A DNA stretch of 61,974 bases, counting the filler. It is 11 parts of 11 records of this genome, joined end to end, with 100 filler letters (N's around TTAATTAATTAA, not from the genome) between each part and the next. Parts side by side here need not be neighbours in the genome. Positions count along the whole stretch, not along the records: positions 1 to 7,498 come from SRR7504441_3066; 10 more parts are not named here. The stretch is one strand, 5' to 3'. The notes below the pieces were generated by a model. The model was not told the origin of the DNA and did not search any database. It was given only the letters and a program-made list of their open reading frames with translations. Both the position numbers and the translations under genes were made by a program. Below, in pieces: positions 2,134 through 60,289 of the stretch. Within the stretch, counting starts at the first letter, position 1, and each line of letters opens with the position of its first letter.

Positions 2134-3087
2134 ATGGATCCGGAGGACGTGTTGGCACCTGACATCACCTTCAGGCGGGTCTCCGCCTTCCCGGAGCTCC
2201 GGGCCGCCAAGAAAAAGACCACTCTGCACACTCTAACCAAGGAGCAGCCGCGCATCCCCACGGTCATCCACATGTACGACTCCTGCTGAGGCGGGTGTCG
2301 GCCGTGCGCCCGAGCGGTAGCGAACTGGGCGAACGGCGGATACGGCGGACGCGTCAGGTTTCTGATGCTCTGCGTGGAGACGGGCAAAGATGGGCTCCGC
2401 ACAGCCACCGACTTCGGCCGGGGGTTCGAGCTGCCACCCGAAGTAGTCAATGGGTACATCGACCAGCAGTGGGAGCTACCGGGGTACGGCCAGCTCGGCT
2501 GTGGTGGCTTCATCGTGCTCGGCTTATACGGCGAGTTCGTCACTAATCGGAGCGTGCCGGCCTATCTAAAGAAGGGCGAAGAGGCATTCACCGCCGTCGA
2601 AAAGATACTGAGCCACCTCGGGATTAATCGGGAATCGGCTGGCGCCGGCGCGCCGCCTGCAGCTGTCCCCGAGTCCAAGTCCGAAGAGCTGGCCCTGCGG
2701 CTGGGCCCTGTCGGTCATGAGCAGATGGATCAAGAACATGCTGGACTCGAGCTCGCGGTCAATGCCCTGCAGCAACAGCACAGCCTCGCAACTCTCTGTC
2801 ATCTGCGGGACCTCTGGGCCGAGCATTCGCAGCACGAAGAGGCGCTTTTTGAGCAGAACTCTTTCGGTGGCAATCGGGGGTCTGGAGGGCTCTCTGCCAC
2901 TGCGTCTCACTGCCAACACCATCGTGCTATCCTCGAGAGCTTGCAGCGTGCATCGACTCTTGCAATCCCTGGGAGCCTGCAGGGGAAGTCCGACTCAGTG
3001 CCCCAGGATACGGTGCGAGAGATCGTGGCTGAGATCCAAAGGCACGGCGACATCTACGACAGTGCCTACGCTGGAAAACTAGCATAG
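2134..3087 (+). CDS. Selenoprotein: thioredoxin-like domain (CUGGCRPC) fused to a hemerythrin domain, 317 aa, Sec at codon 52 (TGA 2287-2289)
   Basis: ORFs 1687-2289 and 2365-3087 are in the same frame, separated only by one TGA. Read-through gives VIHMYDSC-U-GGCRPCARAVANWANGGYGGRVRFLMLCVE. Hemerythrin ligand pattern: DQEH, HSQHE, HCQHH, HGDIYD. SECIS downstream. Confidence 0.85.
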
Positions 3088-3146
3088 TGCAAGCCCTCGG
3101 TATTGCACACACAAGCTCCAGCTCTTAGATCCCCCTGTGAACAATG

Positions 3147-3234
3147 TGCCTGGAGTGCAGTATTATGACCGCGTCGCGGATCAGACCACTATGGTACCCG
3201 CGAAGTGTGAACCTCCAACTGCACCCACGTGGCA
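3147..3234 (+). promoter_or_regulatory. Eukaryotic SECIS element (type II-like)
   Basis: Helix I GTGCAGT(3155-3161)/ACTGCAC(3218-3224). Core ATGAC(3165-3169)/TGAA(3208-3211). Helix II CGCGTCGCGG/CCGCGAAGTG. Apical mini-stem ACCA/TGGT. Confidence 0.85.
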
Positions 3235-3605
3235 TTGGCATATAGGCTAGGGATTGAGATATTCATATTTTCGGACTTATTCTTGAAATTGACATGAGCG
3301 CTACGTACAAATTAATTCATGTACAGAAAATAAAAAGCAGCAAGCTTTGCTGGTGATCTGTACAGGTCCTAGATGCACTATGTTGATACAATCGCGTAGG
3401 TTGCAAACTAGTAGGTTGCAAGCAATCTTGAGTTCATTTGAAATCTATTTGAAATCTTGAACACTGATCTAATCACGTTCTTACAATCATGTACACTAGA
3501 TATCTCGACCTCTCCGGATAATGTCATTACCGAAATCCAATTCAGTAGGTTCCAAAATGTATCTCAAATACAGCTCATTTTCTTCGTGAATGATCACACA
3601 AAGGC

Positions 3606-6311
3606 CTAGCTCGTCTTTGTGAGATTGTTCCTTGTGGCAATCGAGGCGGCCGAGATCAGCAGCGCCTTAGTGCGATCCTCCAAATCTCGGGACGTCACCA
3701 CTGGAGTGTCGTTGAAAGCCAGCAGTGCCTGGGCAGCCCGGCGGTGAGAGAGCCAACTCTCATAAGTGTCCACTTCCTCGGCGAGCCTGCAAGCCGCCAA
3801 CGTGAGCTCAATGAGAAGCATTACAGCTCACTTGTTGGTATCAGCCTCGGTCGCGTTGGTCACTTTCGTGTCATTTGCCAGTGGCAGCGCCCGCAGCTTT
3901 GTCAGCACACTCTTGACTTTCTCAATGGACTGAACGGCTTTGTCCAACGCCTGTCCCGCCTGAGCCCAGTACCGCAACTGAGCCCACCTGCGGCCGAGCT
4001 ATGTTCTCAGACAACCGCAGGTCCAGCACAGCAAGCAGCTTCTGCACTGTGCCCTCCTGCGCGTGGTAAGTGCTCTGAGCCGCGTTGGCAGCCTCCTGAG
4101 CCGGCGCGGATCAAATCCAGGGCCAGGATGCACAGAGCACCTCAGTCAGCAGCCACTCATCTGCGAGCTCTATGGCCGCCCCCAGAGCCTCCCGCTCCTC
4201 GGCTGTGCTCACCTCCTCGATCTCAGCGCTCTCAAGCCTATCTCGAGCCGCTGCCATCCGGATCAGTGCTTCGCGCCAGCCGGAACCGACCAAACAGGAA
4301 GGATTCGAGGTGGTTCTGAGCCTCGGACCGAGCCTGGTGCTCTTCGTCCAACTTCTGCCAAAGCTGCCCAAACCAGTCACCAGGACCCCGGCAACCAGCC
4401 ACCGCCAACGTCTCGACACCCGCGGCGAGCTGTTGCTCGGTGGCTAGCACCCCGTCGGTGTTGAGCTGCGTCGAAGCGTTGAACACCCGTCGGGTCCAGC
4501 CAGGGGGGCCGACCTGCAGCCAGCTGCGGCCAGGCACCCGCCAGGCTCACCTTCTTGGCAATCGGGACAAACTGCTGGATTTCGGCCAGAGAGAGCAGCC
4601 CGGACCGATCGAGCTCTATCAGCAGCGAGCAGTCCAAGTCGGCTCGCACACCGTCGGGCTCCAGGATCGAACTTGTCCACCCAAGGTCCGACTCAACCAA
4701 CTCAACTTGTGAGGCGCCCGCAGGCACCGTGACCGCCCGGACGCTCGGCAGCCACGCGCCCTGGCTGATCAGCTCGGACAGCTGGCCGGACTGCGAGAGC
4801 TGGATCGGGTGGGCGGTCAAGTCTACGAGATTCACAGGTCGGATGTTGTAGCCCTTGAGTGCTGCAGCATAGTACGTAGCCCCGAGCGCGGCGGCCTCGT
4901 CGCCGTTCAGGCTGGTCTTGAGCTTTGGCTTGCCGAAGAACTCGCTAAGAGTGCTTTGCACCTTGGGCATCCGCTGAGCGCCTCCGACCATCTCGACAGA
5001 ATGGAGCTCGTCCGCACTAAACTCCGCCAGCGCTGCCTTCACCTGTTGCCCAATCAGCCCACCCCTCAGCCGCCAGCCCACCGGGCCGAGCACGCGATCA
5101 AACAGCGGCTGGGCGGCCTCCTCGAACCTATCGCGCCCGTCAGCCCGGCCGCCGGTCTGGGCAGTTTGCCTGCTCCTGCTGAGCTCAAACCTAAGGTCGA
5201 GCTGGTCTGTCAGCCCCTCCACTGAGACCATGTACTCCTTGTTCGCCGAGAGCACCCGCCGGGCGCGCTCGGCCTCGTGCTGCAGCCGGCACCGGGCCCT
5301 GGTGGTCAGCTTCTCACCGGCCAGCTTCTTTGTGGCCTCATTCACCAAGATCTGACCCGGCACTCAGCTAGACTCAGGGGGCACACGGACCTCGGCCAGC
5401 ACCGCATCAAACGCCCGACCGCCCAGGAACCGGTCGTGCGCCACTGCCTTGACGATCACCTGCAGCCCGTCCAGCAGGGCCGGGGTTGGGCCCAACCTGC
5501 GTGACGGATTTGCGCCGGTCGTCTCTCGTGAGCTCATTCCTAAACCTCACAATGCTCACTTTGGTGCCGCCGCCGCCCATGTCGTAGAACATTACCAGCC
5601 TTGAGCTGTTCCCAAAGTCCTGATCGATCCCGTACCGGAGAGCTACGGCGGCGTGGTCGTTCACCAGAGAGAGGAGTGGCACCCCGGCGATCTGAGCTGC
5701 GTGCACCATCGCGCGGCGCGCCATCTGGCCGAACCAGCCGGGGACCGTCACCACTACCCCATCGGTCTTCCGCTCGCCCTGGTTGAGCGCGATCGAGCTC
5801 ACCGCGTACTGCATCAGCATCCCAGTGGCCACCTCCGGGCTGAGCGTGCTGTTCTCGCCCTCCCCGAGCAGCGGGCTCATTCGGCCCGAATCCGGGCTCA
5901 TAGCCATCCCGGGGTGGCCCTCCCGCGCCTGCCCGCCCAGCTCGACCCCGGCCCGAGGGGCAGGATTGGACCTGCTCGGCCGCGTCGGAGCCGTACCGCA
6001 GCCCGAGGAGGGCGCTGGGGAAGGCGATCGTCCGGGCCGGGTGGCGCGAGAACTGGGCACACGGCTGAGCGCGGGGCGCGGACCGAGGGCACCAGGTTGA
6101 CCGCGTCGTCGCCCCAGACCCGGCGGGGTCCGGCAGGGTGAAAGCCGACTGCCGAGGGTGTCTTGCGCTTGGAGGCCTCGTTGAGCGCCATCTGGACCCC
6201 GTGCCCGTGCCGTCCGACCCCGACCTTGAGGAACGCGCTCCCCAGGTCCAGCCCGACCACCGCCCCGCTCACCACTCCGACCAATGCGGCCAGCACACCC
6301 ACGCGCAGCAT
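3606..6311 (-). CDS. HYOU1: ER Hsp70-family chaperone HYOU1/Grp170, about 10 short introns
   Basis: Signal peptide, then VGLDLGS, LNEASKRKTPSAVGF, VVTVPGWF, FYDMGGG, VGGAQRMPKVQ, LNGDEAAALGA, NHLESFLF. Confidence 0.85.
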
Positions 6312-6407
6312 TGTTGTCTTCCTCGAGCGATCGCCGGCCGCGGGATCGCAGTCGTTCGGTTCCGTTGACTGATGATTTGGCGGTAGCCACGGCGGGCACC
6401 TCTCTGG

Positions 6408-27469: not shown

Positions 27470-30400
27470 GTCTGCTAGATCCAGTGTACAGTCAGAATAT
27501 TGGGATTCATGGTGCACTGGGCGATGCGTGCATGGAGGCAATCGGATTTGCTTGGCAACCGGATGAGAGCCCAAGCTTTGTATGCCAGGAATGCATGAAG
27601 ATGGAGTTACAACTCCAGTACAGGAAGATCCTGGTAGAAACAACAGGCCTAACCATGAGTCCACATTTATTGGATCGAGGTGCTGAGAAGAAGATTCGAT
27701 CCATGAGTGAACTGCTAAGCCTCGCCAAAAGTGTGCAGGAAGTTTATGCATCTCTTTGTACAAACGGCAGCTCTGAAAATCATGCAATACACCAGAGTCT
27801 GTGCGGTGTGTGTGATACACTGAGGGCAGCGAGCACTAGGAAGGCTAAACTCGGGATCGACGAGCTAAAGTCCGCTTTTGTCGCACTCAAGGCACTGTTA
27901 CTGAGCCCTGAAGGCGTCACTGACTATGAAATTGAGGCCAGTGGATTGCCCAATGCATGCGTAAACTACTTGAGCTGTGGAGTTTCAGATGGTTCATCGA
28001 GCAAGAATCTGACAGCAAGGCTTGAACGTCTAGAAATGCTTAGAGACGTTTTTGGCACAGATAAACGTGCTGGCAACAAGCTCGCAGGCTTGCTGCAAGC
28101 TCAGCTTTCTCAGATCGAGCAATTCAACACAATCTCTTATGATCAGGCGTCTGGCTCGCGCGGACTTCAGGCTCTGAGAAAGCCGTTGCATTTGGAATTT
28201 GTCCGTGTTCAAGGCGAAGAAAGCTTGAATAAGTGCTCCCAGTCGACTGTCCTGATCGAACCTATGGCGACTGGCCAAGACATCCAAACTTGGCTTAGCA
28301 AGAAGGTTGAGAAGCGATGGTATGAAGCAGAGCGCAGTTCTCTCAACTTTATCAAGTATGCCTGTCGAAGCTTTGAGCCAGATGCCAACACCCCAACCGG
28401 CGTGATTCATTGGATTGCAACCAACGGCGGGCAAGAGAACTGGACCAACCCGTCCAAATCAGGGCTGGTGAGCGTTACAGGACCAACTGATCTACCAAAA
28501 AGTGGATTGTTTGATTCTTCAGGCTATGTACTGGGCAATCCTGGTTGCGCATGGGTCAGTATAGATCTTGGCCTGCAGTTTGAGATACGTGCATACTCGC
28601 TGAGCTGCGCGGAGGTCTCTAGAAAAGGCTTGTTGCTCCTGGGGTCATCTACTGGCCAGGACAATGATTGGTACGTACTCGAACCCAAATCCTCCCAAGA
28701 TCCAGCTGCGCCCTGGGAGGTCTCGGTGCAGCGCAAGTATTCGACTAAAAAGAGGCCAGGATCCTCGAGTACCAAGGCGAAACCAGTCAATCCGAAGCGT
28801 GCAAAGCATTCTCAGAGGCGTGCTCGCGTTACAAGCTCAGGTCAGCTCTGTGAAGCGGAGAAGGTTGAGGTCGTCTCTTCAGTTGTTGTCTCAAAGAAGT
28901 CTGCACGTTCCACAAAAAGACAGAAAACAGTGGACGCCCCAGAAGTCACCTCCAGGCTAACAAGGAGCAGCCAGATGGATGTGTCCAAAAGAACAAGGAG
29001 TCAGGCAAAGAAGGCTACTAGCGTGCCTCGAGTGCTACGCAGTAATCAAGAGAGCAACGCTACTTGCGCAGGGCCGTCATCACAGCGAGTTCGGAAACGT
29101 GCACTTAGCAAGGCTGAGGAGCCCAGCTGTGACCTGCCTGCCGCTAATGCCACAAGAGCTCAAGACGTTGACCTTCCAAAGTCATTTCGACATTTCAAGC
29201 TTGTCGCAGAAAAGTCACAAAAGCTGCCTCCGATCAGAATCGCGCAGCTTGAGATGTTTGGAGTCGTGTCTAACGCTGTTGAGGAATTGGTCAGCCCGAC
29301 TCCCACCGGTGCCCAAGCCAGCGAGCCTGTCACATGGGAGTGGAATGACGAGACCCTGTGGAATCCGTACGATGGCCGGACAAGCGCCAGACTGGAACTG
29401 GCACATCAAATGGGAGAGGCCCGCGTCAACCTCACAACTGGGTACTTCTCCACACGGGGTGGCTATGTAGTCGATCTGCAGAGACAAGTCCAAATCAACA
29501 TGCGGACCGGAAATCAGCGAAGAATTCGTCGGCAAAAGACAGGCGCAGATCCTGATACAACACACAGGAAGAAATCGCTGTTGAGAACGCAGGCGGCTCA
29601 CGACGAAATGTCTCTGTTCCCATCGTCCCATCATATTCATGATCTGCTGGGTCCAAGCCCAGTGCTGCGTCGAGACTACTCGGCACTGGCTCCAGTCTTT
29701 GATCCAGTGAGCGATCCGCGCCGAGCGCACTCGAATCCAACACAGACTCTCCTGGTGGACTTGGAAGAAGATGCTGATGGTGAAATGGCCGAGGATGCCA
29801 CCAAGCAGCAAATCTATCTTTACATGACTTGTGACTCCAAGGAAAATGGGTCGAGCATCATCGAGCTCGCAGACAAGAAGAGCATCCTGCAGGCCGTGCA
29901 AGAAAAGTACTTGCTAGCAGCCAAAAACCGCGCTTCGGCCAAACTGGGCAGGCCTGATGCTTCATGGGTCCAGCGGCTGTGGAGGGACTCGCATAAAGTG
30001 TTCTACTCATCTAGACCTCCAACTCCAGCCAAGAAAGGCAAGCCAGTCGAGAAGGCGGAGCTGTACAGTTCAGAATGTGAAGCTGCTTGTTCAAGCATTC
30101 CACCTAAGATCTCAGCGAGCAGTGATGTAAAGAAGATCATCTTTCTGCTCCACATACTTTGTGGCTCAGGGGTGACTGACCAAGAGCAGCTGACCAGTGT
30201 CTGTTTGACCAACAAGCTCAAGACTCAAATGGATGACGTGTTGAGCCTGTGCTGTGGCACAGTCCCCCAATGGTGTTCAGAGCTGATTCGATACAACCCG
30301 CTCCTATTTGGCAAGGCTGCGCGCTTCAGCTTGTTTCAATCGAGGTCGCTCGGGTTCTCGCGCACAGTTTCTCGCTTGGACCGCCAGGCCTCCAATGCGT

Positions 30401-31521
30401 CGAGTGGCAGCCACAGCAGCTTCGCATCATGGCGGCAGCGCATTGGTCATCTGGTGACGGATCGAATTATTGTTCCACGCGACAATTCGCTCTTCTTTAG
30501 GGCAGCCGAGCACGCGATGAAGCTGCATGCACGCCGGCGCACTGTGCTCGACTTTGCGTTCGAAGGCGAAGAGGGCACCGGCTCTGGCCCAACAGCCGAG
30601 TTTTACACTTTGGTCTCTATGGGATTCAGGGACGGCTGCTGCGCCTGCATGTGGAGGGACGTGAACAGCCCAACAGGCCTGTTCCCCGCCCTCTTGCCAT
30701 CAGATCCGGCTGCTGCAGAAGAAATACTTCGCAAATGGCAATTCTTCGGGCGATTCACAGCGCGCGCGCTCCTCGACAATCGGCTGGTCGACATGCATCT
30801 CTCGACCAGCTTCTTCCAGTTGCTGTGTGGCCGCTCACTTACAATGGACGATGTCAAGAACGCGGATCCAGGCCTCGAAAGGCTGCTCGATCTGGGGGCT
30901 GAAGAGATCGAAGCTGTGTGCCAGACAATGAGCTGGGAAGGGTCCGATCTGGTGCCAGGCGGGTGCGAGCTCGACGTCACTGCCCAGAATCTTGATCGGT
31001 TCAAGCAGCTATCGGCTCAGTTTGTGCTCGCCAACGGGATCGAACAGCAGATGGCGGCCTTCTCGGTCGGGTTTGAGGAAGCCTGTCCAATCAGCTCACT
31101 GCATGCGCTCACAGCGCACGAACTGCAGCTGCAGCTCACCGGGGATGGTGCGCTAGACTGGACCTTGGAAGTCCTCCAGAGCACAATTGAGCCCAAGCAC
31201 GGCTATACTGCGGATAGTCCGGCGTTCAGCACGTTCTTAAGTGTGCTGGATCAGATGGACAATGAGGAGAGGAAAACGTTCGTTTGGTGGGCGACTGGAA
31301 GCCCGCGTTTGCCTCCTGGAGGCCTAGAAAAGCTCAGCCCGCAGAAACTGAGTGTCGTATTAAAGACTGAAGGCGACAGACACTGCGACGACATTATGGT
31401 GTCAGTAAACGTGTGCAACAAAGCCATCAAATTGCCTGCCTATAGCAGTATGGAAATACTTCGAGAGCGCCTCCGGGCAGCCATGAACACGAAAGAGGCT
31501 CGCGAGTTCACACTGACCTAA
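27470..31521 (+). CDS. HECT E3 ubiquitin ligase of the HECTD1/TRIP12/UFD4 group with WWE domain, 5'-partial, intronless over 4 kb
   Basis: FEGEEGTGSGPTAEFY, WATGSPRLPPGG, SVNVCNKAIKLPAYSS (catalytic Cys); GVIHWIATNG...WTNP; LRRDYSALAPVFDP; WEWNDE...RRIRR. Confidence 0.9.
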
Positions 31522-33659: not shown

Positions 33660-36311
33660 TCAGCTCAGCGAGCCCCACGTCGGCCCTGTTCTAACTTGCA
33701 CCGGCAGCGCAACATCTAGCTTGGCTACATTCTCCATCTCGTGTTGAAGAATCGCCTTTACACTCTCCAGCTGTTCTAACCGCACCTCCACCAATAACTC
33801 GTCATGAAGCTGCATCACAATCGCAGCTTGTCCCACAAACTGACCGGCGAGTCGCTGATGCACCCTCACCATCGCCAGTTTCATCAACTCGGCCGCTGAA
33901 CCCTGCAGCACGGTGTTCACTGCCTGGCGCTCCGCCTGGCTCCGATCACGCTTATCCGGTGAAGAAATCGCAGGGATGTAGCGGCGGCGGCCCTTCCATG
34001 TGGTGACATAACCACACTTCCGGCAGAGCGCTACTGTGTGCTGAAAATAGGCGCGAACCCCGCTGAATCGAGACATGAAGCTTGCTATGTGAGCAGAGGC
34101 TTCATCCCTTGTGCACGAAAGCTCATGCGCTAATGTACCGGCGCCCATCCCATACAAAATCCCATAGCAGACCCGTTTGGCAACCTTACGTTGACTACTC
34201 GTGACTGTCTCGACAGGCACACCGTGCCACTGGGCATGAAGCTGGTGGAAGACATCATTAGTGGGGTCGTTGAGAACCTGCAATAGCCTGCTGTCCTTGG
34301 CCATGTGCGCCGCCACTCGAAGCTCAATCTGTCTAAAGTCGGCCGAGATGAATGTGTAACCTGATGAAGCCACAAATACATCACGCGGCGAGATTGTCAT
34401 CGAGCCGTGGCAGCGCCAAACCCGGTCAGCAGGGAAGGTTAGTTGCCTATTGGCGCAAGCCATTTTGATTGTCACCGTGGCCATTGAATGAGCGTCTGCC
34501 TCAGAATAGGTCAGGCCTTTGGAACTCCAGTAGTCAATGAGTGTTCGTGGATCATCATGAGAAAGCGGCAAATTCATCCCGGAGCCAGGAAAGACTGCAG
34601 TGGCTAGCGCCATTGTCGGCTCACTTGTGGCAGGTAGGACATATACTAGCCACGGGTTATCTTCAGTCAACCCCTCTGGGAGCGAGCCTGCGCGTATTTC
34701 CTGTTCTATGGTCAGGTTACATTGAGAACATGTCTCTAGCTGAAGCTCGTTCGGCATGCACTGTAGATTAGGGTTGTCCGTATAAATGCGTCCGGTTACA
34801 TTACCTGCCTGCAAGTAAGTAGTGTGTAGTCTGTCAGTCTGGCCCGATTCCTGCTGGTGCAGCTGTGCTGAGTTCATGGCTCGCTGCACGGCTCCCACTT
34901 TGCGATACAAAATGACCAAAATCGGCATTCGATGCCCGCTGGTGGCAGCAATATGTTCTAAGGAAGCCGCATCGCTCGCAAGCACCTCGATGACATGCTC
35001 CAGCTCGCCATCCCCAACGCATTCGGCGATGGCATCGCAGACATCCCTCTTGCTGGTAACTTGCACACTTCGCCCAGCTATCAGATTGATTTCGTTATGC
35101 AAGGCTTGCTGCGTGTCTTCTATCCTTTCAGAGAGCTTGGCACTCTCTTCCACACTGAAGCCAATCCCGAGAGTTTCCATGTGAAATAGCACAGGTACTA
35201 ACGGCATCTCCAACTCTCTGTACAACTCAACCATTTTGTGCTGTGCTAGACATGCCATCACACTCCTGTGGATCTGCAACGAGCGGAACGCTAGAGCAGC
35301 CACACCTAGCCGTCCACTTCCAAGCGCTTTCTCAGGCGGCCAAGAGCTGGCCTCGCTATCCCCACAGTAGGCTTCATGCAGAGAGCGTACGTCTTGGGAT
35401 TCTCCCGAGGCGTGAAGCAGCCCAGCTGCCAGCATGGGGTCATCTAGTGGGCCTGATACTTCAATCAGGCCCGCAAGCGCTTTCATTGCTGCTTTCGCGT
35501 TAAAGCATACCTTACTAGCTTCAGCGCGCAAGAACATCTCCCGTGCAAAAGCCAGTTTTTCATTAGATCCAGTAGCCTGTGCAAAAAATGGCAGAAAGTG
35601 CACTTGCTTAGAACTGATGCAGACCATCATTCCTCGAACCTCGCCAACCTCGAGCACGGGCTGCCATGCAAATTCATTAACCGCGCGCCAATCTTGCTGG
35701 AAGGCGGAGAACGCCTCAGCTGAGTGCGACACATCAACAATCTGGAAAGGCATTGGATTGGACTGCTGCTGTACAATATGGGATCCCTGTGGCTGCAGCG
35801 TAAGACCAGACTGGATCGCAATGCGCTTGGCATTCCGCACCAGAAGCTTTGCAGTACGAGACTGCATTCGGCGCCTCAATGCACACACCTCATCCCGCCC
35901 TCCAGTAGCCACGGGATCGAGTTTACGGTTCCCTCCCCGACTGTTCTTCTGAAGTATCTGCGCAACTTTGGAGACATCTGCGACTGCAAGCTGGGCAACA
36001 TCAGTGAGCCCCCCGTCGAACAGTGACCGGGCATAGGTGCTAGTCATGTGAGGGACGCTGGCCAGTCCAGTCAGCTCAACTGCTACACCATGACCTATCC
36101 GCTCCTGCACCTGTCCTAAGACTAGCGACAGCCCCCACCACTCCATGGCCTCGCAAAAAAGACACACCATCGCGCCATGTTGTGCTGCTGAGCTCTGCAA
36201 CTGCTGCAGCTGCCCTCGACTGAGTTCAAAATCCTCCGAAACCGAGGCGAGAGGGACCTCCTCGAGTAGGCTGTTAAGCGCCATTGCGGCGTATAGACGC
36301 TTGTGGGTCTG
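33660..36311 (-). CDS. POLQ: DNA polymerase theta (C-terminal helicase part plus family A polymerase), 5'-partial
   Basis: RGQLQQLQSSAA...FCEAMEW helicase tail; TGRIYTDNPNLQ, SADFRQIELR, RKVAKRVCYGILYGMG, QAVNTVLQGSAA, QLHDELL. Confidence 0.88.
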   Translation of the reverse strand, partial: QTHKRLYAAMALNSLLEEVPLASVSEDFELSRGQLQQLQSSAAQHGAMVCLFCEAMEWWGLSLVLGQVQERIGHGVAVELTGLASVPHMTSTYARSLFDGGLTDVAQLAVADVSKVAQILQKNSRGGNRKLDPVATGGRDEVCALRRRMQSRTAKLLVRNAKRIAIQSGLTLQPQGSHIVQQQSNPMPFQIVDVSHSAEAFSAFQQDWRAVNEFAWQPVLEVGEVRGMMVCISSKQVHFLPFFAQATGSNEKLAFAREMFLRAEASKVCFNAKAAMKALAGLIEVSGPLDDPMLAAGLLHASGESQDVRSLHEAYCGDSEASSWPPEKALGSGRLGVAALAFRSLQIHRSVMACLAQHKMVELYRELEMPLVPVLFHMETLGIGFSVEESAKLSERIEDTQQALHNEINLIAGRSVQVTSKRDVCDAIAECVGDGELEHVIEVLASDAASLEHIAATSGHRMPILVILYRKVGAVQRAMNSAQLHQQESGQTDRLHTTYLQAGNVTGRIYTDNPNLQCMPNELQLETCSQCNLTIEQEIRAGSLPEGLTEDNPWLVYVLPATSEPTMALATAVFPGSGMNLPLSHDDPRTLIDYWSSKGLTYSEADAHSMATVTIKMACANRQLTFPADRVWRCHGSMTISPRDVFVASSGYTFISADFRQIELRVAAHMAKDSRLLQVLNDPTNDVFHQLHAQWHGVPVETVTSSQRKVAKRVCYGILYGMGAGTLAHELSCTRDEASAHIASFMSRFSGVRAYFQHTVALCRKCGYVTTWKGRRRYIPAISSPDKRDRSQAERQAVNTVLQGSAAELMKLAMVRVHQRLAGQFVGQAAIVMQLHDELLVEVRLEQLESVKAILQHEMENVAKLDVALPVQVRTGPTWGSLS

Positions 36312-36424
36312 NNNNNNNNNNNNNNNNNNNNNNNNNNNNNNNNNNNNNNNNNNNNTTAATTAATTAANNNNNNNNNNNNNNNNNNNNNNNNNNNNNNNNN
36401 NNNNNNNNNNNTGCATTCAGGGAG

Positions 36425-42062: not shown

Positions 42063-43289
42063 ATGGCAGACGGCGAGGATGGAACCACAGTGGTTGGGGA
42101 GCGGCCTTCGCTCTGGCAGAAGGCAGTGGTTGGGGTGCGGCTGCGTCCCTTCAGCAGACACGAACGCACTATGTGGCCTGAAGGCAAGGAGAGCGCTGTA
42201 ACGTTTGACAGGGAGAGAGGTGCTGTTCAACTGCAGGGCGCCAAAGGCGTCCTCAGAGTGCTGCCTTTCCATCCAGATTTATGCTTTGACGAGTGCCATC
42301 CGGGTGAGGGCGGGCTGCAGGGCGACGAGGGACAGCAGCAGCTGTATCGCCGGTTGGTGTCTCCCGTAGTGGAATGGGTTGTACGCCGCCGGGCTGCTGG
42401 GCACGTGCTTGCTTATGGCCAGACTGGTGCTGGAAAGACGTATAGCATCCTCGGGGACGGCACACGCGAAGGCCGGTCCGGCATGCTCCCGCAGGCACTC
42501 CAGCACATCTTCGGGGCAGTGGATCCAGACACTGAGGTGACGATCAGAGCGATGGAAATATACAGAGAGCGTGTTTACGACCTGCTAGTGGAAGCCAACC
42601 CTGGAATGGCCGATCTCAAGGTGAGATCGCGGCGTGTCGAAGGACAAGCTCGCGTATCGCAGTTTCTAGTTGAAGGGCTCACATACGAGCAGATCCAAAC
42701 TGCTGAGGAGGGGATGGCTGCAGTGGATAGAGCAATCATGAACTCCCGCATCAGGTACACGACAATGGGACAGGCTACTTCTCGGGCACACACGCTGTTC
42801 AAGATTCGATTAGCAATCCCGGAGGGCCCTCACGCCGAACTCACGATAGCAGACCTCGCTGGATCTGAGCGCATTTCAAAGAGCAGTTGTGGTGCAGTAC
42901 TCCAGGAAGCTGTCGCTATAAACAGGTCATTGACTTCCCTGGTCTCGTGCGCTAGACAGTGTGCAGAAGGCAAGTATGTGCCTGTTCGAGATAGCAAGCT
43001 CACTCAGCTTTTGGCACCGGTGTTCTTCGGCAACGGTCGGATTTCAGTGATTGCCAATCTCTCGCCTGCAGTGTACAACGTAGAGGAGTCGCTCTGTACA
43101 CTCAGGAATGTTGGCTTCTTTGACAAGCTCAGAAGGACCGTGGAATGGACCGAGCTACTACACAAGGAGTGGCCTCGGGAATTCAGGGCTCGGGTATGCG
43201 CCGTGGTGATCTCAACTAGAATACCTTTTAGCTTGTTTGAACTGCTTGTGTGCGCGCTAAGCGAGGAACACAACGAGGTAATAAAATAA
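42063..43289 (+). CDS. Divergent kinesin motor-domain protein, intronless
   Basis: VGVRLRP, AYGQTGAGKTYS, EIYRERVYDLL, TSRAH, DLAGSER, INRSL, VPVRDSKLTQLL. Confidence 0.92.
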   Translation: MADGEDGTTVVGERPSLWQKAVVGVRLRPFSRHERTMWPEGKESAVTFDRERGAVQLQGAKGVLRVLPFHPDLCFDECHPGEGGLQGDEGQQQLYRRLVSPVVEWVVRRRAAGHVLAYGQTGAGKTYSILGDGTREGRSGMLPQALQHIFGAVDPDTEVTIRAMEIYRERVYDLLVEANPGMADLKVRSRRVEGQARVSQFLVEGLTYEQIQTAEEGMAAVDRAIMNSRIRYTTMGQATSRAHTLFKIRLAIPEGPHAELTIADLAGSERISKSSCGAVLQEAVAINRSLTSLVSCARQCAEGKYVPVRDSKLTQLLAPVFFGNGRISVIANLSPAVYNVEESLCTLRNVGFFDKLRRTVEWTELLHKEWPREFRARVCAVVISTRIPFSLFELLVCALSEEHNEVIK

Positions 43290-55210: not shown

Positions 55211-55420
55211 CGCGGAAGTCGGATGCGGGGGCAGCTGGGCGAGCGGCCACACACAAAGCAGCGAAAGCTGGCCTGTGGCAGTCGCAGCTGGCTGTGGGCG
55301 AAGCCGGCCCGCTCAAACCTGTGGGAGCCGCTGCACCTGTCGAATTTTGCTTTTCGCTTTTTCCCAACGGCAACTGAAGCAAGGTGAGCCCATCCGGTTG
55401 AAAGAAGCCCAGCTGTGTGG

Positions 55421-56914
55421 ATGGCCGACGGCGAAATCACGGAGGCGTTCTGCCACGAGGGACGGCGGTTCAACCTGCCGATCCACATCCTGCAGCTGGA
55501 CGACCTGTCTGAGATCCTCACCGTGCCCACCTGGAACACGCTGAGCAAGAAGGAGAAGGAGAGGCTTGCCCCGCTCCTCCCGGCCTGCAACGACGAACAA
55601 GAGCGCGATGCCTGCGCCGCCGCCGCGCTCACCAGCCCGGGGAGACTGGGCGACAAGCGGACGCCGGCCTCGTCGTGCCTGCAGCTGATGAAGAGTGGGC
55701 TGATGCATCCGTCGGTGCAAGAGCACAAGAAGCGCTCGAGGGAGCTTATGGAGCGGCAGCACAGCTACGACGTGCGTGATTACCACAACAAAATGGTGTA
55801 CGGCGCGCTCAACTGGGGCGAGAGTGCGCGGATGCCCGCATCGAGCAACGGGCGCAGCAACTCGGGTGTCCCCGGCAAGTATGGGGCGCGGCATCCGTGG
55901 ACCGTCCCTGCGATACAGGCGGTCCACCGGGTACTGCAGAACTCCCACAGGAAGACAGCCAAGATGGCCCACCTGCAGCAGATCTTCGAGCACGCGCTAC
56001 TACCCGACCGGCCGCCACTCTCCGGACTTGAGTTCTCGCGGGAGCCTCAGGTGACCCAAATGCTCCGGGCAACGCTCGTCTTCCTCTCCCAACGGCCGGT
56101 GAGCGAGCCGCTGGTCCGGCCTTCGTCCGGGGGGCACGAGTGGGTGTGGAGCTCCCCGACTGTCCTAGGGCGGCTGCAGATTGTTCAGCTGGCACAGCAA
56201 TTCTCTGAGCTGCTGTTCACCAATGAGTTTGTGCACGCAGTGCGGGCCAGTGCGCACGCCAGCCTGTCACAGCCGCCTCCCCCAGTGCAGCCTGCCCAGC
56301 CGGCGGCCGCAACAACGCCCATCCTGTCGAATGAGGATGCGATCAGAGAATTCCACAGACAGGAATACCAACGTTACACCAACCCCTACCGCCCGTTCCG
56401 ATACGTCGACGCGCTGACGGGGCAGAGTACTGTTGTGGCCCCGCTCCGCAAGACAAGTGGCCAATCTACAAAGGGCCGGGATGCCTCGGTGCTGGTACCC
56501 GACCGGCCGGTGCACGCTACTGTGGTCGCCGTGGTCCGAGACGCAGCTGCGCGGTTGCCTCAAGGGAGAGGCTCGCGTCAGGATATATGCACGCTCATGC
56601 GGTCGTCGCAGTACATCACGCCGGAGGTGACCGACGCTACGTTGAATCAGGTGGTGAGCAACTCACTCGATCGGCTGCTGGCTCAGCATAACGACCCGTG
56701 TGTGGAATACGATACAGTGCGCAAAGTGTGGGTGTATATACACTTTGGGAGGACAGAAGCAGACTTCCTCAACAAACGCGGGGCTGCGGCCAAGCATGCC
56801 GCACGGTCGGCGCTGGTCCAGGCGGCGGATGGCCGAGCTGTGTACCAGCCTCCGGCTGGACAGGCGGAGGCTGGATCAGGGATTCCAAGTGAGAGCGAAT
56901 CGGATGAAGGCTAG
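55421..56914 (+). CDS. NFRKB: NFRKB (INO80 subunit G)-like protein
   Basis: DEUBAD-like EILTVPTWNTLSKKEKERLAPLLP; winged-helix block FHRQEYQRYTNPYRPFRY...VRDAAARLPQGRGSRQDICTLMRSSQYI...WVYIH. Confidence 0.82.
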   Translation: MADGEITEAFCHEGRRFNLPIHILQLDDLSEILTVPTWNTLSKKEKERLAPLLPACNDEQERDACAAAALTSPGRLGDKRTPASSCLQLMKSGLMHPSVQEHKKRSRELMERQHSYDVRDYHNKMVYGALNWGESARMPASSNGRSNSGVPGKYGARHPWTVPAIQAVHRVLQNSHRKTAKMAHLQQIFEHALLPDRPPLSGLEFSREPQVTQMLRATLVFLSQRPVSEPLVRPSSGGHEWVWSSPTVLGRLQIVQLAQQFSELLFTNEFVHAVRASAHASLSQPPPPVQPAQPAAATTPILSNEDAIREFHRQEYQRYTNPYRPFRYVDALTGQSTVVAPLRKTSGQSTKGRDASVLVPDRPVHATVVAVVRDAAARLPQGRGSRQDICTLMRSSQYITPEVTDATLNQVVSNSLDRLLAQHNDPCVEYDTVRKVWVYIHFGRTEADFLNKRGAAAKHAARSALVQAADGRAVYQPPAGQAEAGSGIPSESESDEG

Positions 56915-57163: not shown

Positions 57164-58636
57164 CTAGTAGCCTAGCATTGTCCACAGCCCTCCGCTCTTG
57201 CTACTCTGAGCTTCTTGTGACCCACCTTTCGTGGAGTCCGTCACATCTGGCGCTTGCTTGGCATTTGGCTCCTCTCCTTCCGTCGCCTCGCCACTTGCTG
57301 CATCATGAAACTGGTCGGACCCCTCTGGACCGTCCTCGCCCCTGGCCAGCCGCCGGACCAACCCAATCGCCGCCTTCTTGACGGCAAAATCATGATCCTT
57401 CTGCATCGCCTCCAGTCGCGAGCCCACTGCCGCCAGCTGTGCCCGGTTGCACTGCCCAAGACACTCGAGTGCTGCAAACCGCACTCGGCCATGGCTGTCT
57501 TCTAGCCGGGCCGCCACCAGATCTATCAGCTCCAGGTTGGCTGGCAAGGCCTTGCTGAATACAGCTATCACTGCGCTGCGACACTGCCACGCCGCGTCCT
57601 CCAGCCCAGGCCGCAGCAGGTCCAGCCGCCCCGCCAGCCCGGCCGGATCCCGCCCGAGCGTGATGAGCGCTTCCTTGCGCACATGCCAAGCCGGGTGTGC
57701 CAACAGCCCGACAGCGCGCTCTGCAGCCAGCTCTGCATCCAGCCGTCCAAGCAGTACAAGTCCTGCGTGCGCCACCTCCGGGCTCGGATCCTCCGTCATC
57801 TCCGCCACCGCCGGGCCGTGCGCGGCCGTGGCCAGCTTGCCCAGCGCCAGGAGCGCCTTCAGCCGCACTTCGGCGGAGCTGTGCTCCAGCATTCGCTCGA
57901 CTGCTGCTGCATGCCCTGCCTGCGCCGCCGAGGCATCCAGCCTGGCCAACACAACCAGCGCTGCCTTGAGCACCGCCGCGCTGGCCTGGGGCTCATCCAG
58001 CACCGCCCCGACAGTCGGCGCGTGTGCGGATAGCGCGTCCGGCTCGAGGTTCCCGAGAGCCAGCAGAGCCATGCACTTGACCTCCGGCCTCACATCCCTC
58101 AACATACCAGCCAGCCGATCAGCCGCCTCGGCCAGACCAGCCGGCTCGAGCCGGGCGAGCACCTGCAGCGCGGTGCAACGGACCTGCCAGGCTGGATCCT
58201 CCAGCCGGGCGAGCACCGGCCGCACGTGCCCGGCCAGCGTGGCCGGCTCGAGCTGTCGGAGGACGGTGAGCGCGGCCAGCCGGCAGCCGGGGCTCTCGCT
58301 CTCCAGCTGCTCGACCACCGCCTCCAGCCGATTGCTCAGCGCGGGCGGATCCAGCTTGGCGGCCACCGCTAGCGCCTTGGCTCGGACCGTTGCGTCCAGG
58401 TCAGCGATCAGGCCCAGGATGGGCTCGGCGTGCGCGTCCAGCTGCTCGCGGTCGAGCCGCTCGAGCAAGGTGAGGGCCTGCTTGCGCACCGCTGGGGACG
58501 GGTCCGGAAGGGCAGCGAGGACAGCCTGGATGTGCAGGAGGAGGTCGCGCGAGGGGCGTCGGGAGAGGCTCTCAAGGGCCTGGAGCCGAACGGCGGACGG
58601 CTGGTCCGGCTGGAGCTGTGAGATGATCTGGGACAT
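57164..58636 (-). CDS. HEAT-repeat protein, intronless
   Basis: About 11 repeats of LxDxxxxVRxxALxxLxxL. Confidence 0.8.
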   Translation of the reverse strand: MSQIISQLQPDQPSAVRLQALESLSRRPSRDLLLHIQAVLAALPDPSPAVRKQALTLLERLDREQLDAHAEPILGLIADLDATVRAKALAVAAKLDPPALSNRLEAVVEQLESESPGCRLAALTVLRQLEPATLAGHVRPVLARLEDPAWQVRCTALQVLARLEPAGLAEAADRLAGMLRDVRPEVKCMALLALGNLEPDALSAHAPTVGAVLDEPQASAAVLKAALVVLARLDASAAQAGHAAAVERMLEHSSAEVRLKALLALGKLATAAHGPAVAEMTEDPSPEVAHAGLVLLGRLDAELAAERAVGLLAHPAWHVRKEALITLGRDPAGLAGRLDLLRPGLEDAAWQCRSAVIAVFSKALPANLELIDLVAARLEDSHGRVRFAALECLGQCNRAQLAAVGSRLEAMQKDHDFAVKKAAIGLVRRLARGEDGPEGSDQFHDAASGEATEGEEPNAKQAPDVTDSTKGGSQEAQSSKSGGLWTMLGY

Positions 58637-58777
58637 GGGGGCCGTGCGCGAGCCCACCATTCGCCGAGGTTGTGCGGCCAATCGTGCCCTGCCGCAGTCC
58701 TGGGGACGGGTCCGGAAGGGCAGCCGGAGCTGCGCCGCGTGGCAAACTGAACAACGGTCGTTTTGAGAGGAATTCGG

Positions 58778-60289
58778 ATGGCGGCCCAGCCCTTCTATGC
58801 CTCCCAGTTCGAGCTCTGTGACGCCGGTGCGCCCGACCAGGGCCGCAGGGGTTTTGACCGCGTGGGTGCAGCTGACAAGGGCCACGTCGAGCGGGTGACC
58901 GAGCTGATCGCACTGGGGGCCGATGTGAACGTGAAAGACTTCCTGGGGATGACTCCGCTGATGCACGCAGCCAACATGGGCCAATCCGAGATCGCGCAGG
59001 CTCTGATCGAGGCGCATGCCCAGACTGATGTGGCCGACAACGCTGGCCGGACCCCGCTGATGCTGGCGGCGGCGGGCGGCATGATTGGGGTGGTTGAGAT
59101 TCTGATCTACACCAGGATTGGGTGCCATCCTGGGCACCAGCCGAGTTGGCCGACCTGTGGGCAGGGACAAGACGGTCAATTCGGCCATCAACGAGAAGGA
59201 CAGGATCAACGGCGACACCGCGCTGATCCTGGCGGCCAAGCATGACAGCGCGGAGGTCGTCTCACTGCTGCTCGAGGCGCGAGCACTGCCCGAGGTCCGA
59301 AACGGTGTGCTCGCACGCCGTGGCCGCCGGGGTCAGGCCGGGCTGCTGGCAGATCTGAAGGAGAACGCGCAGTATGTCGCCAAGCGGCACCAGTCCAAGG
59401 CTGCGCAGGCTGTGCTTGCCAACCCGAATAGGAGTGCGAGTGCGCCAGGCTCCGAGCAAGGCGAGCGGCTGCAGGCCGACCCAGGGCTGACCAGCGGGCG
59501 CAGCGGAGAAGGAGCAAAAGGCCTTGGAGAATTTTAAGATCAAAATGCAATTGGAGTTTGATGAGCGAGCTGCCGCTCTGATAGAGCGAATCGAACGGAT
59601 GACGGAGGAACAGTTGGCGGTGCTGCGGGAGGATCTGGAGAGGCGGCGGGCCGAGATAGACGCCGACGTGGAGCGAATGATGGCGGAGATGGAGGCCAAG
59701 ATGAAGGAGGTCGGCCGAGCCTCTCGCGGCGTGCACTGACTGCCCACAGGAGCTGGACGAACAGAAGAGAGAGGCGGGCATTAGACTAGAGAAGGAAGAG
59801 GCGGCTCGCAAGGAGCAGGAGCGGGTGCGGGCGGAGCAGGAGCAGGAGCGCGAGCAGCGGATCCGGGACGCGAACGCGAGAATGCTCGCCGAGCAGCAGA
59901 AGAGGCAGGCGCTAGCGGACCACGCTCGACAGGAGGTGCGGCGCATCGCGCACAGGCGGGCGACCTGTGGCGGCAGCAAGAGAAAGCGATCCGGGAGGAG
60001 TACGACGAGAAGTTCAAGGAGCTGGAGGAGAGGCTGATGGCGAAGATGATGCAGACGTGCTGCCCCCGCTGCTGGCTGCCCTAACCGTCTGGTGCAGGAT
60101 CGACAACCAAAGGGAAGAGAACGATCGAATCATCGAGCGTGAGCGCGAAGAGAAGATGTCGGATCGGTGCGCCGCCCGGTGCGTGCCGATTCAATTGTGT
60201 GCAGGAAACACAAGCTCGAGAGCAAGCACCAGCGCGAGATTGACAGTTACATCAACCAGACTTACCCGTCATCGTATGGCAGGACTTGA
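58778..60289 (+). CDS. Ankyrin-repeat protein with charged coiled-coil C-terminus, about 8 introns
   Basis: GMTPLMHAA, GRTPLMLAA, GDTALILAA; E/R-rich tail joined by GT-AG introns. Confidence 0.85.

What the first reader, a model, noticed from the sequence alone, without database searches (positions are those of the whole stretch)
3147..3234. SECIS element with non-canonical apical bulge (CAG/AGA instead of AA)
Seen: about 70 nt after the stop, a 7-bp helix I, the ATGA..GA core, a 10-12-bp helix II and a type II mini-stem (ACCA-cta-TGGT), with outer pairing TGCC/GGCA. The unpaired apical nucleotides are CAG(A) rather than the usual AA(R). This independently supports Sec decoding. It may be a lineage-specific variant that strict SECIS patterns would miss, hiding further selenoproteins in this genome.
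Basis: partly seen in the sequence, partly recalled or inferred. Interest (0 to 1): 0.75.

Follow-up and report, generated by a model that had tools for sequence, protein, structure and literature searches.

The report
Algal SECIS hairpin lacking apical AA
This is very probably a genuine selenocysteine-insertion RNA hairpin behind an algal thioredoxin-like selenoprotein gene, ordinary in everything except that its top bulge reads AUCAG instead of the usual pair of adenines.

Summary
The hairpin is real and sits where described. On the + strand at 3147-3234, starting 59 nt after the TAG stop (3085-3087), I find:
- a 7-bp helix I
- a kink-turn core AUGAC/UGAA, which fits the published UGAN/KGAW consensus
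- a 10-position helix II with one G.A mismatch
- a 5' bulge AUCAG
- a 4-bp mini-stem with a CUA loop.

A pattern scan found this as the only hit in the window. Shuffled copies gave 0.04 hits on average.

The upstream gene (2134-3087) has an in-frame TGA at 2287-2289, inside SC-U-GGCRPC. Nine independent database peptides end exactly before that codon. Fourteen aligned homologues start about 10 residues after it. The protein models as a TlpA/ResA-type thioredoxin fold joined to a hemerythrin-like domain, a selenoprotein type already described in algae.

The element has no AA or CC 10-13 nt from the core, so classic SECISearch patterns would reject it. Rfam gives no hit either.

SECIS elements without apical adenines are already documented (CC in SelM/SelO/Trxr3, and two fungal AhpC elements). 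This is therefore a new member of a known kind.

The claim that the variant is lineage-specific could not be tested, because no orthologous 3'UTR DNA was reachable.

The parts
2134..3087 (+). Single-exon coding sequence of a 317-residue selenoprotein with Sec at residue 52. It has an N-terminal TlpA/ResA-like thioredoxin fold and a C-terminal hemerythrin-like helical domain. Stop is TAG at 3085-3087.
   Evidence: Translation. 47 homologues. AlphaFold model, pLDDT 84.3. PDB fold matches to thiol:disulfide oxidoreductases. Pfam Hemerythrin E=0.023, below the curated cut-off.
2287..2289 (+). In-frame TGA read as selenocysteine, in the motif S-C-U-G-G-C-R-P-C.
   Evidence: 9 of 9 fetched N-terminal database peptides end exactly before this codon. 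14 of 14 aligned homologues start at least 10 residues after it. Nine more distant relatives show W at this position, while 8 of the 16 sister-lineage relatives aligned start just after it.
3147..3234 (+).
   Evidence: Folds. Only hit of the pattern scan.
3155..3161 (+). Helix I, 5' strand (GUGCAGU). Three further pairs lie below it: 3151-3153 with 3225-3227.
   Evidence: Pair probabilities 0.93-1.0 in the 313-nt context.
3218..3224 (+). Helix I, 3' strand (ACUGCAC).
3165..3169 (+). 5' half of the kink-turn core: unpaired A, then UGA, then N (AUGAC).
   Evidence: Sequence. Fits the UGAN consensus quoted in PMC3753652 and PMC2647825.
3208..3211 (+). 3' half of the core: UGAA, which fits KGAW.
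   Evidence: Sequence. Consensus.
3170..3179 (+). Helix II, 5' strand (CGCGUCGCGG).
   Evidence: Nine pairs plus the G3173.A3204 mismatch.
3198..3207 (+). Helix II, 3' strand (CCGCGAAGUG).
3180..3184 (+). Apical 5' bulge AUCAG, in place of the usual AA(R).
   Evidence: Unpaired probability 0.72-0.91. No AA or CC 10-13 nt from the quartet.
3185..3195 (+). Helix III (mini-stem ACCA/UGGU) with triloop CUA. This makes the element type II.
   Evidence: Pair probabilities 0.5-0.76.
3196..3197 (+). Apical 3' bulge AC.
   Evidence: unpaired probability 0.89-0.95.

Best explanation
The hairpin at 3147-3234 is the functional type II SECIS element of the mRNA of the gene at 2134-3087.

Inferred mechanism, by analogy with characterised eukaryotic SECIS elements:
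- AUGA (3165-3168) and GA (3209-3210) form the tandem sheared G.A pairs of a kink-turn.
- SECIS-binding protein 2 binds that kink-turn and recruits eEFSec carrying Sec-tRNA(Sec).
- The ribosome then reads UGA 2287-2289, about 875 nt upstream, as selenocysteine instead of stopping.

The product is a TlpA/ResA-like thiol:disulfide oxidoreductase domain with Sec next to a CRPC motif, fused to a hemerythrin-like domain.

The apical bulge AUCAG replaces the usual AA(R). I take this to be a tolerated variant of the loosely conserved apical A/C run, possibly lowering efficiency, and not a different mechanism.

Shown here: the sequence anatomy, the thermodynamic stability, the rarity by chance, the position and strand, and the conserved in-frame stop of the gene.
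Inferred: SBP2 binding, Sec insertion, and that the poly(A) site lies downstream of 3234.
For: 1. Anatomy.
- The core AUGAC/UGAA fits UGAN/KGAW, with an unpaired A 5' of it. That consensus is quoted in PMC3753652 (passages) and PMC2647825 (whole text).
- Helix II plus the quartet is 14 positions. The published range is 11-16.
- Helix I is 7 bp, extended by 3 more pairs.

2. Energies. [quoted passage not shown] The SECISearch thresholds quoted in PMC2375036 are -12.6 and -3.7.

3. The hairpin persists unchanged in the MFE and centroid folds of 3088-3400, with high pair probabilities.

4. Chance. The scan gave 1 hit in the window against a mean of 0.04 in 200 shuffles. The 88-mer has z = -2.8.

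5. Position. It starts 59 nt after the stop, on the coding strand. It lies inside a 518-nt gap before the stop (3606-3608) of a convergent Hsp70-family gene. Fungal SECIS elements start roughly 40-420 nt after the stop (10.1101/314781, passages).

6. The gene needs a SECIS.
- 9 of 9 fetched N-terminal peptides from other sequences, 50-82% identical to the window's N-terminal part (alignment identities), end at ...[YF]DS[CG], exactly before the TGA.
- 14 of 14 aligned homologues begin at least 10 residues after it.
- None of the 47 hits covers more than 81% of the query.
- In a sister lineage about 40% identical, I aligned 16 proteins. Seven show W at the site, one shows L, and 8 start at the Met just after it, including 2 MMETSP ORFs labelled 'complete'.

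7. The model (pLDDT 84.3) puts U52 in the active-site loop, before the helix that starts at C55-R-P-C58. PDB matches are TlpA, ResA, CcmG, DsbE and deiodinase 2.

8. Jiang et al. 2020 (PMC7539508, passages) describe an algal 'TlpA' selenoprotein family with a hemerythrin domain, 80% of whose members contain Sec.
Against: - No AA or CC dinucleotide lies 10-13 nt from the quartet. The dinucleotides there are GA, AU, UC and CA. The element therefore fails the NTGA__AA/CC__GA primary pattern (criteria).
- AA-to-UU mutations abolish or strongly reduce Sec insertion in vertebrate and viral SECIS elements (PMC1802603, passages).
- Rfam 15 gives no match at E <= 10 for 3050-3400, for 3140-3240, or for the whole window. 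I had no known SECIS to run as a positive control, so the model's sensitivity to protist SECIS elements is unknown here.
- The lower three pairs of helix II have probability of only about 0.6, and there is a G.A mismatch.
- No covariation evidence exists.
- The poly(A) site is unknown.
- My scan's parameters were chosen after I had seen the element.
Confidence: 0.8

Rival explanations
1. The hairpin is a weakened or decaying SECIS. The core is intact, but loss of the apical adenines makes Sec insertion inefficient. The gene would then be poorly expressed, or on its way to losing Sec.
For: No AA or CC at the canonical distance. A mismatch and weaker lower pairs in helix II. Human SECIS elements differ more than 2000-fold in efficiency, and the weak group includes the CC-type SelO and Trxr3 (PMC2761289, passages).
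Against: The open reading frame is intact on both sides of the TGA and stays 50-82% identical to relatives. Swapping apical regions between a strong and a weak human SECIS changed activity only 2-5 fold. Apical adenines are 'not universal'.
Confidence: 0.1
2. The hairpin is a chance or unrelated GC-rich 3'UTR structure. The real SECIS lies elsewhere, or has a form that none of my scans recognise.
For: Rfam does not recognise it. There is no comparative support. The scan was built post hoc. In fungi, 11 of 16 selenoprotein genes have no recognisable SECIS, so unrecognisable forms exist.
Against: The strict pattern is expected 0.04 times per window, which is roughly 1e-4 for a 300-nt stretch on one strand (the extrapolation is mine). 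No better candidate exists in 3088-3700. The best alternative, at 3590, pairs 7 of 10 helix II positions, folds with z = -1.2, and overlaps the stop of the convergent gene.
Confidence: 0.07
3. The TGA is not decoded as Sec. It would be a real stop separating two ORFs, a read-through codon, or TGA = Trp in this organism, and the hairpin would be irrelevant to it.
For: Nine database relatives show W at this position. All standard-code gene models split here.
Against: The same families have members that start right after the position, including standard-code MMETSP ORFs. This fits W being a gene caller's reading of TGA. The sequence is conserved on both sides, and the codon sits in a redox motif of a thioredoxin fold. 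The family is published as a selenoprotein family. The best named relative is from Emiliania huxleyi, which has 96 reported selenoprotein genes.
Confidence: 0.03

Closest known systems
Eukaryotic type II (form 2) SECIS elements, i.e. the SECISearch/SECISaln consensus. The Rfam family name SECIS_1 is recalled, not seen in any call.
   Same: 3'UTR location. Helix I, internal loop, AUGA/GA kink-turn core (UGAN/KGAW). Helix II of canonical length. Apical bulge followed by a short helix III.
   Different: The bulge reads AUCAG. There is no AA (or CC) 10-13 nt from the quartet. The element is not matched by the Rfam models at E <= 10.
CC-type SECIS elements of SelM, SelO and Trxr3 (PMC2761289)
   Same: Functional SECIS elements in which the apical AA is replaced. 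SECISaln describes the position as a run of A or C.
   Different: Here the bases are mixed (A, U, C, A, G) and not a CC pair. Only the CA at 3183-3184, 14 nt after the UGA and so one position beyond the 10-13 nt window, gives two consecutive A/C bases.
Gonapodya prolifera AhpC SECIS elements lacking apical adenines (10.1101/314781)
   Same: Otherwise canonical SECIS elements without the conserved adenines, accepted by specialists as genuine.
   Different: Different kingdom and different gene family. Those elements were detected by SECISearch3, which I could not run.
Algal 'TlpA' thioredoxin-like selenoprotein with a hemerythrin domain (Jiang et al. 2020, PMC7539508)
   Same: Thioredoxin-like fold plus a hemerythrin metal-binding domain, with Sec in most members, found in algae.
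   Different: I could not see that family's sequences, because the supplement was unreadable. Identity with the published family is inferred from the description only.

Membership tests
Eukaryotic SECIS element | Lies downstream of the stop codon, on the coding strand of a gene with an in-frame Sec-UGA | tested here: met
   Starts 59 nt after TAG 3085-3087. The UGA is at 2287-2289. The gene's in-frame stop is conserved in relatives.
Eukaryotic SECIS element | Quartet UGAN/KGAW with invariant UGA/GA, and an unpaired A or G 5' of it | tested here: met
   AUGAC at 3165-3169 and UGAA at 3208-3211. Consensus.
Eukaryotic SECIS element | Helix I below the internal loop, and helix II of 11-16 positions above the core | tested here: met
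   Helix I is 7 bp plus 3 more. The quartet plus 10 positions gives 14. Range.
Eukaryotic SECIS element | Unpaired AA (rarely CC) 10-13 nt after the quartet | tested here: not met
   The dinucleotides at those distances are GA, AU, UC and CA. Criteria. The literature says this feature is strongly conserved but not universal.
Eukaryotic SECIS element | Free energy below the SECISearch thresholds (-12.6 kcal/mol whole, -3.7 upper stem-loop) | tested here: met
   -33.1 and -14.5 kcal/mol. Thresholds.
Eukaryotic SECIS element | Match to a curated covariance model | tested here: not met
   No Rfam match at gathering score or at E <= 10. No positive control was possible. The SECISearch3 model is not available here.
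Eukaryotic SECIS element | Conservation and compensatory changes in orthologous 3'UTRs | not testable with these tools
   No orthologous DNA was reachable.
Eukaryotic SECIS element | Binds SBP2 and directs core-dependent Sec insertion, and lies upstream of the poly(A) site | not testable with these tools
   Needs experiments or transcript data.
Type II (form 2) SECIS | An additional helix III after the apical bulge | tested here: met
   ACCA/UGGU with a CUA loop. Pair probabilities 0.5-0.76.
Algal TlpA-like selenoprotein with a hemerythrin domain | Thioredoxin-like fold with Sec in the active-site region | tested here: met
   Model pLDDT 84.3, with U52 just before helix 55-69 that carries CRPC. 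PDB matches TlpA, ResA, CcmG and DsbE, with TM-score normalised to target length 0.49-0.66.
Algal TlpA-like selenoprotein with a hemerythrin domain | Hemerythrin metal-binding domain | tested here: inconclusive
   Pfam PF01814 gives E=0.023 and 15.6 bits, below the 25.3 cut-off. Six of the 72 hit rows carry PF01814 (precomputed). His and Glu columns are invariant in the alignment (H231, H234, E235, E236, H259, H262, H263, E300, H304).
Algal TlpA-like selenoprotein with a hemerythrin domain | Sequence membership in the published family | not testable with these tools
   The supplement of PMC7539508 could not be read. Only the description in the text was seen.

The most novel reading that the evidence does not exclude
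The bulge AUCAG is not a one-off. This gene family, or this algal lineage, would routinely use SECIS elements with no AA or CC pair, because its SBP2/eEFSec machinery does not need one. Pattern-based scans would then under-count its selenoproteins.
Probability: 0.12. Interest if true: 0.45.

Novelty: new member of a known kind. Interest (0 to 1): 0.25.

Why it matters
The element gives independent RNA-level support that this gene is a selenoprotein. It also shows why standard gene callers split the gene, or print Trp at the Sec codon: nine database relatives carry W there.

For annotation it is a concrete case of a good SECIS that AA/CC-based patterns and Rfam both miss. Scans of algal genomes should not make the apical AA a hard filter.

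Biologically it adds little. The apical adenines are already known to be dispensable in some SECIS elements, and the selenoprotein family has been described.

Tried and rejected
- **Rfam.** I ran it four times: gathering on the window, then E <= 10 on 351 nt, on 101 nt and on the whole window. There was no SECIS match. The six weak hits elsewhere are chance-level (E 1.6-8.5).
- **A canonical AA/CC SECIS elsewhere in 3088-3700.** There were 15 primary-pattern combinations. The best is at 3590 (ATGA..CC..GA). It pairs 7 of 10 helix II positions, folds with z = -1.2, and overlaps the stop of the convergent gene, so I rejected it.
- **The loosest scan (NTGA, up to 2 mismatches, helix I at least 4 bp).** It gave four more sites: 59081+, 35879-, 18629- and 14790-. 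All have 2 mismatches. The 35879 site has a UUGA core and lies inside the PolQ-like ORF. I did not pursue them, and no shuffle control was run for this setting.
- **A second selenoprotein gene in the window, to compare SECIS bulges.** A motif list of in-frame TGAs gave 83 candidates. Apart from 2287, none struck me as a convincing redox context on reading the list. I tested none of the other 82 further.
- **Orthologous DNA.** A protein-profile scan and a degenerate DNA pattern on bacterial and archaeal genomes both found nothing.
- **Obata & Shiraiwa 2005, on an E. huxleyi SECIS.** The paper is not held.
- **tRNA-Sec in the window.** None found.
- **P0053, P0055 and P0069.** These are repetitive proteins, which I judged spurious matches.

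Full report
**What the window is.** The window is GC-rich eukaryotic nuclear DNA, with 47-69% GC in 2-kb windows. It encodes typical eukaryotic proteins: a HECT+WWE ubiquitin ligase, a PolQ-like polymerase, a kinesin, an NFRKB-like protein, a HEAT-repeat protein and an Hsp70-family protein. The best named relative of the gene of interest is a hypothetical protein of Emiliania huxleyi, and other relatives come from marine transcriptome sets. I infer a haptophyte-related alga, but this is not proven.

**The observation.** On the + strand an ORF runs from ATG 2134 to TAG 3085-3087, with one in-frame TGA at 2287-2289. The hairpin begins 59 nt after the stop. Its parts, in exact coordinates, are:
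- outer pairs 3147-3150 with 3231-3234, and 3151-3153 with 3225-3227
- helix I, 3155-3161 with 3218-3224 (7 bp)
- 5' internal loop AUU, then AUGA at 3165-3168 and C3169
- helix II, 3170-3179 with 3198-3207 (nine pairs and a G3173.A3204 mismatch)
- 5' bulge AUCAG, 3180-3184
- mini-stem ACCA/UGGU with loop CUA, 3185-3195
- 3' bulge AC, 3196-3197
- 3' core U3208, G3209, A3210, A3211
- 3' internal loop CCUCCA.

The unpaired bulge is AUCAG, so an A does occupy the canonical first position, 11 nt after the UGA. The outermost TGCC/GGCA pairing is not robust in context, with pair probability 0.08.

**Is it more than chance?**
- The 88-mer folds at -33.4 kcal/mol, z = -2.8, and 1 of 200 shuffles is as stable.
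- The same hairpin appears in the MFE and centroid folds of the 313-nt region 3088-3400.
- In that context helix I has probability about 1.0, the upper six pairs of helix II 0.9-1.0, the lower three about 0.6, and the mini-stem 0.5-0.76.
- I wrote a scan requiring [AG]UGAN ... KGAW, at most one mismatch in the ten positions above the quartet, and a helix I of at least 6 bp, with no apical requirement. It returned exactly one site in the whole window on both strands: this one.
- In 200 dinucleotide-preserving shuffles, 8 had any hit, with a mean of 0.04.
- The scan was designed after I had seen the element. A looser version (at most 2 mismatches, helix I at least 5 bp) also returns only this site, against 0.92 expected per window (50 shuffles). 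By my own extrapolation, that is still only about 0.004 for a 500-nt stretch on one strand.

**Does it fit the SECIS definition?**
- Published descriptions give the core as UGAN/KGAW, with only UGA/GA invariable. They also give an unpaired A or G 5' of it, a helix 2 of 11-16 positions, and a run of A (or C) at the top (PMC3753652, passages; PMC2647825, whole text; PMC4989117, passages).
- The element meets the core (AUGAC/UGAA), the helix lengths (quartet + 10 = 14) and the type II architecture.
- With the quartet forced open the energy is -33.1 kcal/mol. The upper stem-loop is -14.5. The thresholds quoted for SECISearch are -12.6 and -3.7 (PMC2375036, passages).
- It fails the primary-sequence rule NTGA-(10-13 nt)-AA or CC. 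The dinucleotides at those distances are GA, AU, UC and CA (rule).
- Rfam gives no match at the gathering score, nor at E <= 10 on 351 nt, on 101 nt or on the whole window.
- I had no known SECIS sequence to run as a positive control, so I cannot say how sensitive those models are to protist elements.

**Does the gene need a SECIS?** Yes, on strong comparative evidence.
- The full-length query found 47 relatives, but none covers more than 81% of it. All 14 that I aligned start at least 10 residues after residue 52, and 12 of them start at a Met in the same column.
- Searching with the 51 residues before the TGA found 3 short proteins. An exhaustive HMMER search with residues 1-100 found 7 more.
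- I fetched 9 of these 10 (P0056 was not fetched). All 9 end at ...[YF]DS[CG], immediately before the TGA position, and by the alignment identities they are 50-82% identical to the window's N-terminal part.
- So coding sequence is conserved on both sides of a stop that is itself conserved in position.
- Four more distant relatives span the site with W (..GWGGCRPCA..). A follow-up search from one of them gave 25 proteins, of which I aligned 16. Seven have W, one has L, and 8 begin at the conserved Met just after the site, including two MMETSP ORFs labelled 'complete'.
- The simplest reading is that W is TGA translated by gene callers that allow TGA = Trp.

**The protein.**
- The AlphaFold model has mean pLDDT 84.3 and pTM 0.75.
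- It places U52 in the loop between strand 43-48 and helix 55-69, whose first turn carries C55-R-P-C58.
- Foldseek against the PDB returns thiol:disulfide oxidoreductases of the TlpA, ResA, CcmG and DsbE type, and also deiodinase 2. Best E-value is 4e-4, and TM-scores normalised to the target are 0.5-0.66.
- The C-terminal half is helical, with invariant His and Glu columns and a sub-threshold Pfam Hemerythrin match (E = 0.023).
- Jiang et al. 2020 (PMC7539508; passages read) describe an algal 'TlpA' thioredoxin-like selenoprotein family that carries a hemerythrin domain. They report that 80% of its members contain Sec.
- The gene therefore very probably belongs to an already published family. 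Their supplement, which would hold the sequences and SECIS drawings, could not be read.

**Mechanism.** By analogy with characterised SECIS elements (established knowledge, not tested here), the tandem G.A/A.G pairs form a kink-turn bound by SBP2. SBP2 brings eEFSec carrying Sec-tRNA(Sec) to the ribosome at UGA 2287-2289, about 875 nt upstream. That distance lies within the 0.2-5.2 kb range quoted for vertebrates.

**How unusual is AUCAG?** Less than the finding supposes.
- CC replaces AA in human SelM, SelO and Trxr3 (PMC2761289, passages).
- SECISaln summarises the position as a run of A or C, and says that only UGA/GA is invariable.
- Exchanging the apical region between a strong and a weak human SECIS changed activity only 2-5 fold.
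- Against this, AA-to-UU mutations abrogate expression in vertebrate and viral contexts (PMC1802603, passages). A cost in efficiency therefore cannot be excluded.

**What stayed open.**
- Whether the bulge is conserved in orthologues, and whether other selenoprotein genes of this organism share it, could not be tested.
- The window holds no second convincing SECIS.
- Of the 83 in-frame TGAs in my motif list, none but 2287 looked like a convincing redox context to me, and I tested none of the other 82 further.
- In my five answered searches and the passages I read, I found no description of haptophyte SECIS bulges. That is not evidence that none exists. The Obata & Shiraiwa 2005 paper is not held.
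- The poly(A) site is unknown. The element lies in the first fifth of a 518-nt gap between the stop at 3087 and the stop (3606-3608) of a convergent Hsp70-family gene.

**Verdict.** The hairpin is most likely (0.8) the working type II SECIS of a TlpA-like, hemerythrin-bearing selenoprotein gene. Its bulge lacks the AA/CC pair, so strict patterns and Rfam miss it, but such exceptions are known. I class it as a new member of a known kind, of modest interest mainly for annotation practice.

Noticed in passing
database proteins P0064, P0065, P0067, P0068, P0070-P0074 (relatives of window 2134-3087): Nine predicted proteins carry W exactly at the Sec position (..GWGGCRPCA..). Sister sequences from standard-code ORF callers start just after it. 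These are probably TGA codons translated as Trp by gene callers, i.e. selenoproteins mis-annotated in public protein sets. One relative (P0075) has L-D there instead.
   Followed up: partly
window 2317-2319 (residue 62 of the protein): Most relatives have a Met about 10 residues after the Sec codon. Twelve of the 14 aligned start with it, and alignment A4 lists it as nearly invariant. That is why their truncated gene models all start at the same place. The window has Ala there, so its first downstream ATG is at 2365.
   Followed up: no
window 3606-6399, minus strand: A convergent Hsp70-superfamily gene in several exons. Pfam HSP70 matches on 4377-5363 and 5407-6399. The last ORF piece, 3606-3827, ends at a stop at 3606-3608. 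Its 3'UTR must share the 518-nt gap with the SECIS-bearing 3'UTR.
   Followed up: partly
window 3590-3625, plus strand: A hairpin with ATGA, a CC in the loop 11 nt later, and a GA on the 3' side. It resembles a CC-type SECIS superficially. However, its helix is only about 8 bp with a bulge, I did not examine whether a helix I exists, z = -1.2, and it overlaps the stop of the convergent gene.
   Followed up: yes
window about 36311-36410: Two runs of N flank the twelve bases TTAATTAATTAA (stops in all frames). This looks like an assembly gap with a linker inside or next to the PolQ-like gene. The window holds 880 N in all.
   Followed up: no
window 35833-35879, minus strand: A SECIS-like geometry identical to the main element (span 39, helix I 7 bp, loops of 3 and 6 nt). 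It has a UUGA core and two helix II mismatches, and lies inside the PolQ-like ORF. Taken as chance.
   Followed up: partly
window 59052-59108, plus strand: A weak match to a C/D-box snoRNA model (v-snoRNA-1, 24.1 bits against a gathering score of 75, E = 1.6), with UGAUG and CUGA boxes. Not significant.
   Followed up: no
window 27484-31521 (+), 33660-36284 (-), 42063-43289 (+), 55415-56914 (+), 57164-59239 (-): Long ORFs with clear eukaryotic domains: HECT+WWE, DNA polymerase A/PolQ, kinesin motor, NFRKB winged helix, and HEAT repeats. Several are intron-poor over more than 2 kb.
   Followed up: no
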